64,000 nucleotides of DNA, taken from NCBI GenBank assembly GCA_000092065.1, contig CP000581.1. One strand, given 5' to 3'. A model generated the notes under the pieces. The model searched no databases and was not told where the DNA came from. It was given only the letters and a program-made list of their open reading frames with translations. This stretch comes from Ostreococcus lucimarinus (Eukaryota). How positions within the stretch are numbered: the first letter of the stretch is position 1; the number at the start of each line of letters is the position of its first letter. The position numbers and the translations under genes were made by a program. Positions 713-62,995 of the stretch are shown here, piece after piece.

Positions 713-1564
713 CTAGTCCGAATCGTCGTCGCCGCCGTCGCTCTCCGACACCTCCTCGAAATCGTCCGAAATTGACGCCACGTCGTCGTCGTCTAAGTCT
801 GGGTTTAAATCTAACGAAACGAAAGGCACGACGCGAGGCGCGGCTTTCGCCGCCGCGACGGCGTTCGTCGGCTTGACGAGCGCGCCCACGCCCGCGTCCT
901 CGCGTTTCGGCAATTCAAAGTGCAGCGCATCGCCCGGTTTCCATCCCGGCGGCGGGGGCGGGATTCCATCCGGCCACGGCTCTCCGGGCTTCCATTTGCT
1001 CAATCGCTCGATGAGCTCTTCGGGCGGAATCGCCGCCGCCGCTTCGACCATCCTCAGTCTCGCCTCCTCCTTTTGTCGCGCCTCCGCCGCCGCCGACGCC
1101 GCCTTTTCTTTCGCACGCCGTTCAGCGTTGAACGCCGCGAGCCTGGACGCCTGAAAGTGTTCTTCCTGCGGCGCCGGGGGCATTATTCCGCACAGCGGCG
1201 CGCCGGGGACGTATCCCGCGGGCGCGAAGGTGGTGTAACTGATGCGTCGCGCGTAATCCAACACCTCGCTCACCTTTAGCTCGCCTGCGTGGTCGATCGA
1301 CGTTCACGTCAGTCTACGCGCGCGCGAGACGAAGAAACGAACCACGACGGCGGCGCGGCGCGACGTACTCTCCGGTGGAAGCTTCACGTGGCCTAAATTC
1401 GTCGCTCGATCCAACGCATCGCGGAGCGCATTTCGCGCGCTCGCGAGCTCGAGAGCGATGTCACCGAGCGCCTGGTTCGACGACGACGCCGCATCGACGT
1501 CCATCGCGCTCGTATCACCGACGTCGGTGGACTTCGCGGCGGATTTGCCGCGGCGCGGAGGCAT
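713..1564 (-). CDS. Hypothetical protein, two exons: complement join(713..1284,1369..1564), about 255 aa
   Basis: ORF 1304..1564 (MPPRRGKSAAKS...) ends soon after a GTACGT donor at 1368. ORF 713..1273 begins with GTG, not ATG, and is preceded by TAGACTGACG (22 nt) then the CAG acceptor at 1285..1287. Splicing in phase 1 joins ...LPPE-S-ELKVSEVLDYARR. Product is proline/acidic-rich and unidentified. Confidence 0.4.
1285..1368 (-). other. Predicted 84-nt spliceosomal intron (GTACGT...AGACTGACG...CACGCAG)
   Basis: Donor, extended branch motif and acceptor are read directly from the sequence. The downstream ORF frame needs a 1-nt phase contribution from the upstream exon, which this model provides. 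Confidence 0.4.
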
Positions 1565-1679
1565 GGCGACGACGAGGCGCGCTCTGCGGCGACGCGAACG
1601 ACGACGCGGGGAGACTTGGGCTGGTGATTAGATTCACTCGATTCGATGAGATGACAACGCGACGCATCGTAACTAATGT

Positions 1680-2408
1680 TTATGCCGACTTTTCGCGCCT
1701 GTCGCTGCGCTCGAGGGAGGCGACGGCCATCTTGCGCCTCGCCGCGGCGACGCCCTTCTTCACTTTGAGCGCCACCCAGTTCAACAACAGCGCCCCGCAA
1801 ACGCTCCCGATGATCGTGCCGTACTTCACCCAATCCTCAATCGTCCGGCACGCTCCGAGCGTGAGATACTTCCCCACCTTGAGCGCGGCGAAGATGTTCT
1901 TCTGCATCGTCGTGTACACGGGCGTCGCGCCCAAGACGTTGCTCGAGCCGTGCGTCGTCTCTCGTCCGCTCGTTCCCAAATACGACACGCTCACCGCGCC
2001 GCCCGGGAACGATCCCGATTTCTTCGGCACGACGACGAACGAATATTCCACGCTCTCACCGGGCGCGATCGTCGCGTACGTCGCGCTCAGAGACTCCTTG
2101 CCCGTGATCAACTCGAAGTCGTCCTCGTTCGCGAACCCGTCGTCGCGCGCCTTCACCTTTCTCGCCTCCGTCTCCCCCGCGTTCGTCAGCGTGACGGCCA
2201 CGGTGACGTTCGAGCCTTCGACGACGAGGTCCTCGACGATTCGCTTGCGAACGAGCACGCGCGCGGGCCCGGGAGGGGCGTCCGAGGCGTCGGCGTCATC
2301 TTGCGCGACGATCGGATTCGCGAACGATGCGACGACGACGAGCGCGCAGAGCGCGACGCGGGCGACGGCGCGCGCGGTGAACGCGCGCGTTTGTTTTCGC
2401 GCGGGCAT
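1680..2408 (-). CDS. SSR2: Translocon-associated protein subunit beta (TRAP-beta/SSR2)-like
   Basis: True ATG at 2408. N-terminal signal peptide (VALCALVVVASFANPIVAQ). Matches the SSR2 core pattern (VEGSNVTVAVTLTNAG...DDFELITG...ATIAPGESVEYSFVVVPKKSGSF). C-terminal TM (IIGSVCGALLLNWVAL) followed by KKG. Confidence 0.6.
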   Translation of the reverse strand: MPARKQTRAFTARAVARVALCALVVVASFANPIVAQDDADASDAPPGPARVLVRKRIVEDLVVEGSNVTVAVTLTNAGETEARKVKARDDGFANEDDFELITGKESLSATYATIAPGESVEYSFVVVPKKSGSFPGGAVSVSYLGTSGRETTHGSSNVLGATPVYTTMQKNIFAALKVGKYLTLGACRTIEDWVKYGTIIGSVCGALLLNWVALKVKKGVAAARRKMAVASLERSDRREKSA

Positions 2409-2495
2409 GGCGAGCGCGAAAACGGGACGCGACGCCCGACGATGTGTGCGGCGACTAGGAATGAATGAATGAAGCCGATCGCGCGGGCGAGCAGT

Positions 2496-60420: not shown

Positions 60421-60689
60421 CGATCGCGCGCGCACGCGCGCGCGCGCGACGCGCGGCGCCGGCGCGCGCGCGCGCGCCGACGCGAACGCGATGGCGAGAC
60501 GCGCGACGCGGATTCGACGCGTCGCGGAGTGCGACGCGGCGTCGGCGCGCGACGCGTCACACGCACGCGCGCGCGCGAGCGAACCGAGCGCCGACGGCGA
60601 GCGCGGGAGAAGAGGCGACGAACGATCGAACGATCGCGCGCGCGAGGACGGACGACGCGCGACGACGACGCGCGAACGACGCGTGAGCG

Positions 60690-61763
60690 ATGATGCTGAC
60701 GACAACCCTGAATCGCCAGGGTATCGCGCCGACGACGCGACGCGGACGCGATGCGCGCGTCGAGACGCGGCGAACGACGACGGAACGAACGATCGAACGA
60801 TCGCGGAGGGTGACGACGCGCGCGATGCCGGTAGGGAAGCCGGTGCCGTGCGAAAAACACTTTTTACATCTGGATGACTTCACGAAGGAGGAAATCATGG
60901 AGCTCGTCGAGCGGGCGTCGAGCGAAAAGAAACGCCTGCAGAGCGGTGATCGAAGCTTTCAACCGTTCAAGGGGAAGACGATGGCGATGATTTTTGCGAA
61001 GCAATCGTTGAGAACGCGGGTGAGCTTTGAGACGGGGTTTAAATTGCTGGGCGGGAGCGCGATTTATTTAGGTCCGGATGATATTTCAATCGGAAAACGC
61101 GAGGCGACGAAGGATATCGCGAGAGTAATCTCGAGATACAACGACATCGTCATGGCGCGATTGTACGAGCACTCCCAAATCGAGGAGTTGGCGGCGTACT
61201 CGAGCGTTCCGATCGTTAATGGGTTGACGGATTATAACCATCCGTGTCAGATATTAGCCGACGCGTTGACGATTTACGAGTGCCTGGGGCGCTTGGAAGG
61301 CGTCAAGGTTGTGTACGTCGGTGATGGTAACAACATCGTGCACTCGTGGTTGAATTTGGCCGCGGTAGTGCCGTTTCACTTCGTGTGCGTGTGTCCGGAA
61401 GAGTACACGCCGGATGAGAAGACCTTGCAAAAGGCTCGCGACGCCGGTTTGTCTACGATAGAAATTTCGCACGACCCGGTGGAAGGCGTCAAGGGCGCCG
61501 ACGTCATCTACTCTGACGTCTGGGCGTCCATGGGCCAAAAAGACGAAGCCGAACAGCGCAAAAAAGACTTCCAAGGCTACCAAGTTAATGGCAAGATGAT
61601 GGCGAGAACGCCCAACGCCATCTTCATGCACTGCTTGCCCGCCGAGCGCGGCTTGGAATGCGACGACGAAGTCATGGAAGCCGATTACTCCGTCGTCTTC
61701 CAACAAGCCGAAAACCGCATGCACGCGCAAAACGCCGTCATGCTCAAGATGTTGAATTGTTAA
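60690..61763 (+). CDS. OTC: Ornithine carbamoyltransferase with N-terminal transit peptide
   Basis: True ATG at 60690. STRTR carbamoyl-phosphate motif ([10 protein letters not shown]), [19 protein letters not shown] ornithine-binding motifs. Collinear with OTCs. Confidence 0.9.
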
Positions 61764-61878
61764 ACGAACCGTTGTGTCCATACGAACATTGGGCTTATTT
61801 ATTGTTGAATAAGAAAACCAAGCTTCTTTCCACTTTCGACTCCCGCGCCTCAGTCCTCGCCTCGCCGCGTCGCTCGCG

Positions 61879-62995
61879 ATGTCCGCCCCCGACGCGATCT
61901 CGAGCGGTGTCGAAGTCGAATACTTATTACAACAGGTCGCCGAGGTGCGAGGCCTCGCTGCGAGCGCGGCGCGTCTCGTCCCGCGTGTCCCGCTCGAAAA
62001 GTACAATTGACTGACGGCGACGTCCCGCGCAGGCTGTGCGCCGCGAGCGCGCCTTGTGTGATACTCTTCGCGAGTACGACGAACAATACGCCAGTCTACA
62101 GCGCCTCGTGCTGTCGCTGCCCGAAAAACCAAAGCATGAGATCATGATTCCGTGCACAAAGTTTGCAATGTTCGAGGGCGAGCTCGACGGCGAGGCCGAC
62201 GTCTTCGTCGGCATTGGTGGTGATTTGCTCATCGAGCGCACGGCTAAACAGGCAAGCGAGATCATTGGCCGACGGCGGGATCTTCTTCAGGCGAAGATGC
62301 GGGACGCGGAGCAGAACGCACGGGCTATGGAGAGTCGTATAGAGGCGGCGGCGGCGTTGCGGGAAAGCGGCGTCGGCGCGTCGGCGTTGGAGGAGGAAAC
62401 GGTCGAGGATGGACGCGCGCGGATCGCGCGACGAGGTGATGGAAGCGTAGAGATTACGGAAGTGTACGAGGCGGATGATGAGGGCATGATCGCATCGATC
62501 TCGACCCTTGCGCCGAGTTCGGAGAGCGAACGCGTGAATGCAAACGACGCGCGCGGCGATTTGGACTCGTTCATCTCTCGCTTGGAGGCTATGGAGTTGA
62601 ACGAGAGTGGAGCACAGGACGTGGCGGCGAGCGATGACTACATCGATATCGAGAGCGACGACGAGAGCGACGTAGACGTGGATGGGGGTGAGCCACCGAC
62701 GATTGAGTGCCCCGAAGACTTTGTGAAATACGAGCGATGGAAAGCCAAGCGAGACGCCAAAGACGCCGAGCTTCGAGCTGAGTCCGATCGTGTTCGACGA
62801 CGTGCGGAAGAAGAAAGACTGAGAATCGAAGAAGAGATGCGCCGTAAGCACCCGCCCTTGAAAGATACGGTGATCGAGCGGATTCCAGGGGAAGGTGGCG
62901 CGTCGTCTTCGCGAGACGACGCCAACGTTGACGTGACTCGCAAGCTGTCGCGGTACCAGATGAAGAAACTCGGCCTGGCACCGGATTCTCGATGA
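61879..62995 (+). CDS. Prefoldin-alpha-like / URI1-type protein, join(61879..61935,62033..62995)
   Basis: The main ORF starts at GTG 62036 with no ATG. Upstream ATG 61879 (MSAPDAISSGVEVEYLLQQ), GTCGCC donor at 61936, TTGACTGACGGCG branch (62010..62016) and CGCGCAG acceptor (through 62032) splice in phase. Prefoldin-like core KHEIMIPCTKFAMFEGELDGEADVFVGIGGDLLIERTAKQASEIIGRRRDLLQAKM, then an acidic region. Confidence 0.45.

What the first reader, a model, noticed from the sequence alone, without database searches (positions are those of the whole stretch)
1285..62032. Recurrent intron architecture with extended branch motif AGACTGACG; many ORF-track starts are actually second exons
At least eight places share the same signals in the same spacing: a donor GT(G/A)CG(C/G); (G/T)AGACTGACG or ACTGACG; then a CAG acceptor, usually in a CGCAG/CACGCAG context, 20-35 nt later. 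Beyond the RAD50 intron above (branch site CCAACTGACG), they are: 1285..1368 (-, GTACGT donor; TAGACTGACG); 15445..15554 (-, SAP gene; ATGACTGACG); 17537..17726 and 17856..17987 (+; ATGACTGACG and GAGACTGACG); 23611..23727 (+; GCGACTGACGG); 47031..47133 (+; GAGACTGACGG); 61936..62032 (+; TTGACTGACGG). In each case the downstream ORF begins with GTG/TTG (no ATG) or directly with ATG at the acceptor. An upstream short ORF with ATG ends at a GT, and the phases match. The 3' modules of the 47031..47133 and 61936..62032 introns (ACTGACGGCG-TCCCGGCG versus ACTGACGGCGACGTCCCGCG) are more similar than a 5-nt branch consensus alone would predict. So either the branch site is constrained like the yeast TACTAAC box, or some introns derive from a common (introner-like) source. 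In practice, ORF-only annotation will systematically truncate 5' ends here. The transit-peptide-like but ATG-less upstream frame of the rhodanese gene (60421..60705) is another likely case, though I could not find its exon 1.
Basis: partly seen in the sequence, partly recalled or inferred. Interest (0 to 1): 0.6.

Follow-up and report, generated by a model that had tools for sequence, protein, structure and literature searches.

The report
Ostreococcus introns with fixed branch-site box
The window is nuclear DNA of the tiny green alga Ostreococcus lucimarinus. The repeated GTGCG…GACTGACG…CAG pattern marks its ordinary spliceosomal introns, whose unusually rigid splice signals were already described in 2008.

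Summary
The pattern is real, well above chance, and already published. The window is Ostreococcus lucimarinus CCE9901 chromosome 1. I validated nine introns. All carry ACTGACG 18-39 nt before the 3' end, eight carry GACTGACG, and eight start GTGCG (one GTACG). Support comes from spliced metatranscriptome contigs for 3 introns, identical NCBI gene models for 3, restored Pfam domains for 3, and conserved positions and signals in at least six Ostreococcus lineages for 7.

Irimia and Roy (2008) reported exactly this for introns outside chromosome 2: 87% ACTGAC, 66.5% GACTGACG, donor GTGCGTG.

- The SAP donor is 15673, not 15554.
- 17537 should be 17538.
- The prefoldin-like donor is 61945, not 61936.
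- The conserved box is GACTGACG; the extra 5' A is not conserved.
- A TAF10 intron (18506..18622) was missed.
- The rhodanese upstream frame is not coding.

The introner idea finds no support. Intron interiors are no more alike than shuffled controls, and no paralogous copies turned up.

The ORF-only annotation warning is correct: metagenome gene calls truncate N-termini or read through introns.

By-product: three lineage-specific introns in about 20 kb of synteny suggest ongoing intron turnover in the genus.

The parts
1285..1368 (-). Intron of the MED4 gene (84 nt, phase 1). Signals: GTACGT…TAGACTGACGT…ACGCAG. Exon 1 is 1369..1504 and exon 2 is 713..1284.
   Evidence: Five metatranscriptome-type Logan contigs (L004-L008) join 1369|1284 exactly. 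The spliced 235-aa product is identical to XP_001415760.1. The Pfam Med4 match spans the junction.
15445..15673 (-). Intron of the SAP-domain (Tho1/MOS11-like) gene, 229 nt, phase 0. Signals: GTGCGG…GATGACTGACGA…ACGCAG. Exon 1 is 15674..15709 (MSDVDAKKMKVQ) and exon 2 is 14710..15444.
   Evidence: The exon-1 end MKVQ|GT[GA]CG is conserved in 12 distinct orthologous introns, including the annotated O. tauri gene. The SAP Pfam match rises from 39.4 bits (profile 9-36) to 51.9 bits (profile 2-36) with the corrected exon 1.
17538..17726 (+). Intron 1 of a small 83-aa gene ('gC'), 189 nt, phase 0. Signals: GTGCGG…GATGACTGACGA…GCGCAG. Exon 1 is 17436..17537.
   Evidence: The spliced contig L003 contains GGACGAACCG|GCGTACATTC and encodes the exact 83-aa product. 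The position is conserved in 15 distinct orthologous introns.
17856..17987 (+). Intron 2 of the same gene, 132 nt, phase 0. Signals: GTGCGC…CGAGACTGACGA…TCGCAG. Exon 2 is 17727..17855 and exon 3 is 17988..18008. This intron is specific to the O. lucimarinus lineage.
   Evidence: The exact spliced 40-mer is present in L003. The intron is absent, with exons contiguous, in eight other Ostreococcus lineages. O. tauri has a different intron 6 nt upstream.
18506..18622 (-). Intron of the TAF10 gene, 117 nt, phase 0, in frame and free of stop codons. Signals: GTGCGC…CGCGACTGACGC…TTTCAG. Exon 1 is 18623..18760 and exon 2 is 18158..18505.
   Evidence: The spliced protein matches Pfam TAF10 at 120.9 bits over profile 2-102. 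The unspliced protein matches at 105.5 bits over profile 15-102. The position is conserved in 16 distinct orthologous introns, and the O. tauri annotation has a 118-nt intron there. Metagenome gene callers read through it and give 200 aa.
23611..23727 (+). Intron of an uncharacterised 310-aa protein gene, 117 nt, phase 0. Signals: GTGCGT…GGCGACTGACGG…GCGCAG. Exon 1 is 23428..23610 and exon 2 is 23728..24477.
   Evidence: The spliced product is identical to XP_001415422.1. The position is conserved in 15 distinct orthologous introns, including annotated O. tauri.
28457..28590 (-). Intron of the RAD50 gene, 134 nt, phase 0. Signals: GTGCGC…GCCAACTGACGC…GCGCAG. Exon 1 is 28591..28608 (MCTVDK) and exon 2 is 24533..28456.
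   Evidence: The spliced product has the same 1313-aa length and MCTVDKLLIKG N-terminus as XP_001415771.1. Exon 1 ATGTG(T/C)ACGGTGGATAAG|GTGCG is conserved in all lineages. One lineage has ACTAAC in place of ACTGAC.
47031..47133 (+). Intron of a CEP135-like coiled-coil gene, 103 nt, phase 0. Signals: GTGCGC…CGAGACTGACGG…ACGCAG. Exon 1 is 46959..47030 and exon 2 is 47134..50100.
   Evidence: An intron sits at the same codon position, with GTGCG/ACTGACG/CAG, in L036/L037 and in the distant L041/L042. It is precisely absent in L038-L040, where the sequence LLDD|ALSAL is contiguous.
61945..62032 (+). Intron of a URI/prefoldin-like gene, 88 nt, phase 0. Signals: GTGCGA…ATTGACTGACGG…GCGCAG. Exon 1 is 61879..61944 and exon 2 is 62033..62995.
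   Evidence: In L045 exon 1 ends …VTE|GTTCGT, and in L046 it ends …VTD|GTGCGT. Both align with …VAE|GTGCGA here. An ungapped alignment to the intron-less distant homologue P0202 fits the 342-aa form better; this was compared by eye.
59896..60420 (-). Rhodanese-domain gene, 174 aa from the ATG at 60420 (MGDARV…). The upstream frame 60421..60705 is CG-rich non-coding leader, not a transit peptide or a second exon.
   Evidence: The 174-aa form is held by NCBI, JGI and Tara. The upstream frame has a stop in L037 and a frameshift in L036, and is replaced by unrelated sequence in L038, where the ORF starts directly at an ATG.

Best explanation
The recurring signals are the cis-elements of the canonical U2-type spliceosomal introns of Ostreococcus lucimarinus, the class found outside chromosome 2.

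This genome is intron-poor. Here it has about nine introns in 64 kb, mostly one per gene and close to the 5' end. In such genomes, splice-site recognition relies on near-invariant signals. These are a GTGCG-type 5' splice site (inferred to pair with U1 and U6 snRNA), a branch-site box GACUGACG (inferred to be read by SF1/BBP and U2 snRNA) whose penultimate A (the A of GAC in ACUGAC) is the likely branch point, and a CAG or TAG acceptor 18-41 nt further on.

The intron interiors are free to drift. They are CG-rich and cannot be aligned between species. Purifying selection keeps only the three signals.

Shown here: excision from RNA for 3 introns, and conservation of position and signals for 7.
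Inferred: the snRNA and protein contacts, and which A is the branch point.
For: - Organism: exact matches to O. lucimarinus CCE9901 proteins on a 1.15-Mb contig.
- Excision from RNA: contigs L003-L008 lack exactly 1285..1368, 17538..17726 and 17856..17987.
- NCBI gene models use the MED4, 23611 and RAD50 introns.
- Splicing restores complete Pfam domains for Med4, SAP and TAF10.
- The composite signal occurs 9 times against 1.16 expected.
- Among 78 distinct orthologous intron sequences (one a regex artefact) at 7 positions in at least six Ostreococcus lineages, ACTGAC occurs in 73, ACTAAC in 4 and ACTGAG in 1. The donor is GTGCG in 68 and GTACG in 8. The distance from branch A to the 3' end is 18-41 nt, median 33.
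- Interiors of orthologous introns from O. lucimarinus and O. tauri are no more alike than shuffles.
- Literature: Irimia and Roy 2008 (PMC2483917) studied EST-confirmed O. lucimarinus introns outside chromosome 2 and found 87.2% with ACTGAC, 66.5% with GACTGACG, and a 5' splice-site consensus of GTGCGTG at 4.8 bits.
Against: - Direct transcript evidence was obtained for only 3 of the 9 introns. The SAP, TAF10, CEP135-like and prefoldin-like introns rest on comparative and domain evidence.
- The branch-point adenosine was not mapped.
- U2 snRNA complementarity to the flanking G residues was not checked. No snRNA lies in the window.
- Two introns show lineage-specific presence or absence, so not all are ancient.
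Confidence: 0.95

Rival explanations
1. Some or all of these introns are copies of a mobile, introner-like element. The element would bring its own GTGCG donor, GACTGACG branch box and CAG acceptor, which would explain the shared extended motif.
For: - Micromonas RCC299 has an introner class, IE-C, with 221 copies of about 67 nt, carrying the identical GACTGACG box (Verhelst 2013, PMC3879977).
- Lineage-specific introns with the full signal set exist: 17856..17987 only in O. lucimarinus, and two O. tauri-only introns, in the gC and DnaJ genes.
Against: - Pairwise local alignments of intron interiors and 3' modules match dinucleotide-shuffle expectation. The smallest p among the 36 window pairs (two tests each) was 0.02, and the CEP/PFD pair gave z=0.40.
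- The lineage-specific introns are no more alike than shuffles either.
- BLAST of each intron against the window plus about 0.5 Mb of Ostreococcus loci finds only orthologues and CG or GAC low-complexity runs.
- Seven of the nine positions are shared across the genus.
- Caveat: even orthologous introns have lost all interior similarity. An old burst would therefore be invisible to these tests.
Confidence: 0.05
2. The motif co-occurrences are chance, or they are a 5'-proximal transcriptional regulatory element rather than splice signals.
For: ACTGACG alone is not over-represented in the window, with 12 hits against 10.2 expected. One full composite match, at 5200..5230, lies in coding sequence.
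Against: - The composite pattern is enriched about 8-fold.
- The motif is always on the sense strand at a fixed distance from an AG.
- The segments are physically absent from RNA-derived contigs.
- Their removal restores protein domains.
Confidence: 0.01

Closest known systems
Canonical O. lucimarinus introns outside chromosome 2, as characterised by Irimia and Roy 2008 (PLoS Genet 4:e1000148)
   Same: Same organism, the same GTGCG(T/C)G-type donor, the same ACTGAC box extended to GACTGACG, and similar lengths. The published median is 111 nt for all predicted introns genome-wide (chromosome 2 included); here the range is 84-229 nt. The window's introns are simply instances of this class.
   Different: Nothing substantive. 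This work adds per-intron validation, conservation across the genus, and three cases of lineage-specific presence or absence.
Hemiascomycete yeast introns with the TACTAAC box (Saccharomyces, Candida, Kluyveromyces)
   Same: An intron-poor genome, a near-invariant branch-site heptamer, a strong 5' splice site, a constrained distance from branch point to 3' splice site, and introns concentrated near gene 5' ends. Irimia and Roy 2008 describe this as convergent.
   Different: The box is (G)ACUGAC(G), with G rather than A before the branch adenosine. The donor is GUGCG, not GUAUGU. The introns are CG-rich (67-77% GC) rather than AT-rich. The lineage is a green alga.
Micromonas sp. RCC299 introner elements, class IE-C (Verhelst et al. 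2013)
   Same: A related genus in the Mamiellophyceae, short introns, and an identical GACTGACG branch box.
   Different: IE-C is a 221-copy family exclusive to RCC299 and defined as an introner (repeat) class. The window's introns share nothing beyond the splice signals, and most occupy positions conserved across Ostreococcus species.
Ostreococcus chromosome-2 (outlier chromosome) small introns
   Same: Same genome, and also spliceosomal.
   Different: These are 40-65 nt long, with a weak 5' splice site (1.9 bits, GTRNGT) and no ACTGAC box; only 4.6% share any one hexamer. The window's introns do not belong to this class.

Membership tests
U2-type spliceosomal introns, O. lucimarinus non-chromosome-2 class | GT…AG boundaries, and removal restores one continuous reading frame | tested here: met
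   All nine models translate without internal stops from ATG to the stop codon (MED4 exon 1 corrected to 1369..1504, as confirmed).
U2-type spliceosomal introns, O. lucimarinus non-chromosome-2 class | Physically excised from mRNA | tested here: met
   Met for 3 of 9 introns (1285..1368, 17538..17726 and 17856..17987) through spliced Logan contigs L003-L008. The other six are inferred from NCBI models, Pfam domains and cross-species conservation.
U2-type spliceosomal introns, O. lucimarinus non-chromosome-2 class | Strong 5' splice site of the GTGCG(T)G type | tested here: met
   GTGCG in 8 of 9 and GTACG in 1 of 9 in the window. Among orthologues, 68 of 78 have GTGCG and 8 of 78 have GTACG.
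U2-type spliceosomal introns, O. lucimarinus non-chromosome-2 class | ACTGAC branch box (extended form GACTGACG) a short, constrained distance upstream of the 3' splice site | tested here: met
   ACTGACG in 9 of 9 and GACTGACG in 8 of 9, at 18-39 nt from the 3' end. Among orthologues, ACTGAC occurs in 73 of 78, at 18-41 nt.
U2-type spliceosomal introns, O. lucimarinus non-chromosome-2 class | The branch adenosine within the box is the actual lariat branch point, paired with U2 snRNA | not testable with these tools
   No lariat data are available, and no U2 snRNA gene lies in the window.
U2-type spliceosomal introns, O. lucimarinus non-chromosome-2 class | Located outside the low-GC half of chromosome 2 | tested here: met
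   Proteins from the window match CCE9901 proteins XP_0014154xx-XP_0014157xx on a 1,152,508-nt contig. The O. tauri orthologous block lies on a 1,096,037-nt contig, CAID01000001.2. Assigning these contigs to chromosome 1 is my inference from the contig size and accession.
Introner elements (repeated, mobile intron families) | Many copies in unrelated genes with sequence similarity along the whole element | tested here: not met
   No pair of introns exceeds shuffle expectation, and no paralogous copies occur in the window plus about 0.5 Mb of loci. A genome-wide test was not possible.
Introner elements (repeated, mobile intron families) | Recent, lineage-specific insertion, absent from orthologues in sister lineages | tested here: inconclusive
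   Not met for 7 of the 9 positions, which are shared across the genus. Met for 17856..17987, which is found only in O. lucimarinus. The 47031 intron is absent from one clade of unknown placement.
Introner elements (repeated, mobile intron families) | Target-site duplication flanking the insertion | tested here: inconclusive
   For 17856..17987, only the trinucleotide CAG is repeated (…TTTCAG|GTGCG…TCGCAG|CAAAAC). That cannot be told apart from the acceptor consensus.

The most novel reading that the evidence does not exclude
Ostreococcus species may still be gaining introns that arrive already equipped with the full GTGCG / GACTGACG / YAG signal set.

In one syntenic block of about 20 kb there are three lineage-specific introns:
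- 17856..17987, found only in O. lucimarinus.
- An O. tauri-only intron 6 nt upstream in the same 83-codon gene.
- An O. tauri-only intron in the J-domain of the neighbouring DnaJ/ferredoxin gene.

A fourth intron (47031..47133) is precisely absent in one clade.

If these are gains, which parsimony on a midpoint-rooted NJ tree favours, they imply an undescribed template-carrying or reverse-splicing route of intron creation in a genus for which I found no report of introners. The route might be related to the Micromonas IE-C elements, which share the same branch box.
Probability: 0.12. Interest if true: 0.55.

Novelty: already known. Interest (0 to 1): 0.15.

Why it matters
Scientifically, this confirms in a single 64-kb window a published rule: intron-poor genomes converge on rigid branch-site and 5' splice-site signals (Irimia and Roy 2008). 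It does not change that rule.

Practically, it matters for annotation. Prokaryote-style ORF calling is applied to most metagenomic Ostreococcus contigs in JGI/IMG, ENA and Logan, and it mis-annotates about a fifth of the genes here. It drops short first exons of 6-61 codons. This removes the SAP helix 1 and the RAD50 N-terminus. It can also translate stop-free CG-rich introns as protein, as with the 39-aa insertion in TAF10.

A three-signal scan for GTGCG…GACTGACG…YAG recovers nearly all introns, with about one false positive per 64 kb.

The lineage-specific introns noticed in passing could be a tractable entry point to intron gain and loss in a very compact genome.

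Tried and rejected
1. Candidate intron ending at 5230 (ACTGACG at 5200). Rejected: it lies inside a continuous 896-codon membrane-protein ORF with coding-type composition, and it has no GTGCG donor.
2. A relaxed scan (GT[GA]CG … NCTRAY … YAG with ORF continuity). It gave only candidates inside long ORFs, plus the known introns.
3. Rejected in favour of the donor at 15673.
4. Rejected in favour of 61945.
5. A missing first exon for the rhodanese gene. Rejected.
6. Exact look-ups of my spliced SAP (with the wrong exon 1), TAF10 and prefoldin-like proteins found nothing.
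8. An Rfam scan of the window, looking for snRNA genes among other things, found nothing.
9. Similarity tests found nothing beyond chance. These covered the window introns, the lineage-specific introns, and O. lucimarinus against O. tauri orthologous introns. One O. tauri pair, SAP against TAF10, reached z=3.5. Both are ancient introns, and I attribute the score to CGATCG-type low complexity.
10. A literature search for reported intron gains or introners in Ostreococcus found none.

Full report
**Identity of the window.** Exact-sequence look-ups place the window in Ostreococcus lucimarinus CCE9901. The CAF16-like ORF, the spliced MED4 product (XP_001415760.1) and the spliced 310-aa product (XP_001415422.1) are identical to NCBI proteins. 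The RAD50 model (XP_001415771.1) has the same 1313-aa length and N-terminus as my spliced product. These proteins lie on a 1,152,508-nt contig. The window is gene-dense and 52-68% GC.

**Validation of individual introns.**
- *RNA evidence.* Five Logan contigs from different runs (L004-L008) join window positions 1369|1284 exactly. Contig L003 lacks both 17538..17726 and 17856..17987, and encodes the exact 83-aa spliced product.
- *Gene models.* The NCBI CCE9901 models use the MED4, 23611 and RAD50 introns.
- *Domain continuity.* The Med4 match spans its junction. TAF10 scores 120.9 bits over profile 2-102 when spliced, against 105.5 bits over profile 15-102 when unspliced.
- *Comparative evidence.* A metagenome scan and protein-guided look-ups returned syntenic loci from at least six Ostreococcus lineages, including the annotated O. 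tauri genome. At seven intron positions I collected 78 distinct orthologous intron sequences (one, a 120-nt GTCCGA call in L045, is a regex artefact). ACTGAC occurs in 73, ACTAAC in 4 and ACTGAG in 1. The donor is GTGCG in 68 and GTACG in 8. The acceptor is CAG in 49 and TAG in 28. The distance from branch A to the 3' end is 18-41 nt, with a median of 33.
- *O. tauri annotation.* The difference between gene span and CDS length in the O. tauri annotation equals the intron lengths I derived: SAP 149, TAF10 118 and gE 135 nt.
- *Intron interiors.* They cannot be aligned, even between orthologues of O. lucimarinus and O. tauri (z between -0.7 and 1.7). Only the three signals are under constraint.

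**Corrections to the finding.**
All lineages have an exon 1 ending …KKMKVQ|GT(G/A)CG. In the window this is 15674..15709, with the donor at 15673, giving a 229-nt intron.
- *17537.* The first intron base is 17538.
- *Prefoldin/URI-like gene.* Exon 1 ends …VAE|GTGCGA at 61944/61945. The orthologues end …VTE|GTTCGT (L045) and …VTD|GTGCGT (L046).
- *The motif.* The conserved box is GACTGACG, in 8 of 9 introns. The base before it is A in only 3 of 9.
- *Missed intron.* The TAF10 intron at 18506..18622.
- *Rhodanese.* The arginine/alanine/serine-rich frame upstream of the ATG at 60420 has a stop in L037 and a frameshift in L036, and is replaced by unrelated sequence in L038. It is a CG-rich leader, not a transit peptide that needs an upstream exon. 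The 174-aa form is the one held by NCBI and other sources.

**Annotation consequence.** Metagenome gene calls for these loci give 186 aa for MED4 where the real protein is 235 aa. They also give 249 against 310, 1292 against 1313, 987 against 1012, and 319 against 342. TAF10 is called as a 200-aa read-through protein with a 39-aa intron-encoded insertion. In other lineages the CEP135-like and prefoldin-like introns are likewise read through.

**Mechanism.** These are ordinary U2-type introns of an intron-poor genome, with about nine introns in 64 kb. Eight of the nine lie within the first 6-61 codons. Recognition has converged on near-invariant signals, as in hemiascomycete yeasts. The 5' splice site is GUGCG and the branch box is GACUGACG. 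The A of GAC is the presumed branch nucleotide, and the preceding G could form a G·U wobble with the U2 GUAGUA region; that pairing is my inference from established spliceosome biology. The first YAG lies 18-41 nt downstream. I did not test the snRNA contacts or the identity of the branch nucleotide.

**Comparison with what is known.** Irimia and Roy 2008 (PMC2483917) devote a section, 'The Peculiar Case of Ostreococcus', to exactly this pattern. Among EST-confirmed O. lucimarinus introns outside chromosome 2, 87.2% contain ACTGAC and 66.5% contain GACTGACG. The 5' splice site is GTGCGTG at 4.8 bits. Chromosome-2 introns are weak by comparison. Verhelst et al. 2013 (PMC3879977) note that the Micromonas RCC299 introner class IE-C carries the identical GACTGACG box. 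The finding is therefore already known.

**The introner alternative.**
- Pairwise local alignments of intron interiors and of the segments after the branch box match dinucleotide-shuffle expectation.
- BLAST of every intron against the window plus about 0.5 Mb of Ostreococcus loci finds only orthologues and CG or GAC low-complexity runs.
- Seven of the nine positions are shared across the genus.

The idea is unsupported here. Because orthologous introns have lost all interior similarity, an ancient burst cannot be excluded by sequence alone.

**By-product: intron turnover.**
- Intron 17856..17987 is present only in O. lucimarinus-type DNA. It is absent from eight other lineages.
- O. tauri has its own second intron 6 nt upstream in the same gene (AIN|FQQSKTQG).
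- O. tauri also has a unique intron in the J-domain of the neighbouring DnaJ/Fer4 gene (KKAYYGFAKE|CHPD). The window and all the other lineages examined lack it.
- The 47031 intron is precisely absent in one clade.

On a midpoint-rooted NJ tree of four concatenated proteins (1,027 ungapped columns), O. lucimarinus and O. tauri are both nested. Gains are therefore more parsimonious: one gain against two to four losses for each case. RT-mediated loss of introns near the 3' end is a credible alternative, and no outgroup was available. These lineage-specific introns carry the full signal set but share no other similarity. I found no paper reporting intron gains or introners in Ostreococcus.

**Verdict.** It is a textbook instance of a pattern published in 2008. 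Several coordinates and side-claims need correction, and the more exotic introner reading is not supported. Interest is low. The only modestly novel thread is the apparent intron turnover between Ostreococcus species.

Noticed in passing
window 17856..17987; L043 (O. tauri) about 10380..10465: The second intron of the 83-aa gene exists only in O. lucimarinus-type DNA. O. tauri has a different second intron 6 nt upstream in the same gene, and eight other Ostreococcus lineages have neither. This points to two parallel gains, or else to three losses plus a 6-nt slide.
   Followed up: partly
L043 (O. tauri) about 8600..8715; orthologous window site near 16030 (+), KKAYYGFAKE|CHPD: O. tauri alone has a 113-nt intron (GTGCGTGG…GGCGACTGACGGG…CGACGCAG) inside the J-domain of the DnaJ/ferredoxin gene. 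The window and five other lineages have contiguous coding sequence there.
   Followed up: partly
window 47031..47133; L038-L040 about 2440..2460: The CEP135-like intron is present in O. lucimarinus, a close relative (L036/L037) and a distant clade (L041/L042). It is precisely absent in another clade (L038-L040), where LLDD|ALSAL is contiguous.
   Followed up: partly
window 18506..18622 (-); also L041 (CEP135-like) and L045 (prefoldin-like): Because the introns are 67-77% GC and packed with CpG, several are in frame and free of stop codons. Prokaryote-style gene callers translate them as protein, for example the 200-aa 'TFIID subunit 10' entries in JGI/IMG that carry a 39-aa false insertion.
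   Followed up: yes
window 28487..28494 (-): The RAD50 branch box is AACTGACG in the window but GACTGACG in four near-identical environmental O. lucimarinus contigs (L009, L012-L014). This is a polymorphism at the -1 position of the box. In a more distant lineage (L029-L032) the same intron uses ACTAAC.
   Followed up: no
L004-L008 against window 1..3004: Spliced, RNA-derived contigs run continuously across three or four neighbouring genes on one strand: a methyltransferase, TRAP-beta, MED4 and a TLC/LAG1-domain gene. Transcripts or their UTRs appear to overlap in this compact genome, or the assembler merged adjacent transcripts.
   Followed up: no
window 60421..60705 (-) and 3860..4000 (+): Long ATG-less extensions rich in arginine, alanine and serine upstream of real start codons look like transit peptides. 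They are translations of CG-rich leader or intergenic DNA. One of them overlaps the divergent promoter region shared with the ornithine carbamoyltransferase gene (60690..61763).
   Followed up: partly
window 24001..28000 and 44001..52000: The GC content dips to 0.52-0.55 where the long coiled-coil genes lie (RAD50, the CEP135-like gene and a 1622-aa ORF). This looks like an amino-acid composition effect, not foreign or chromosome-2-like DNA.
   Followed up: no
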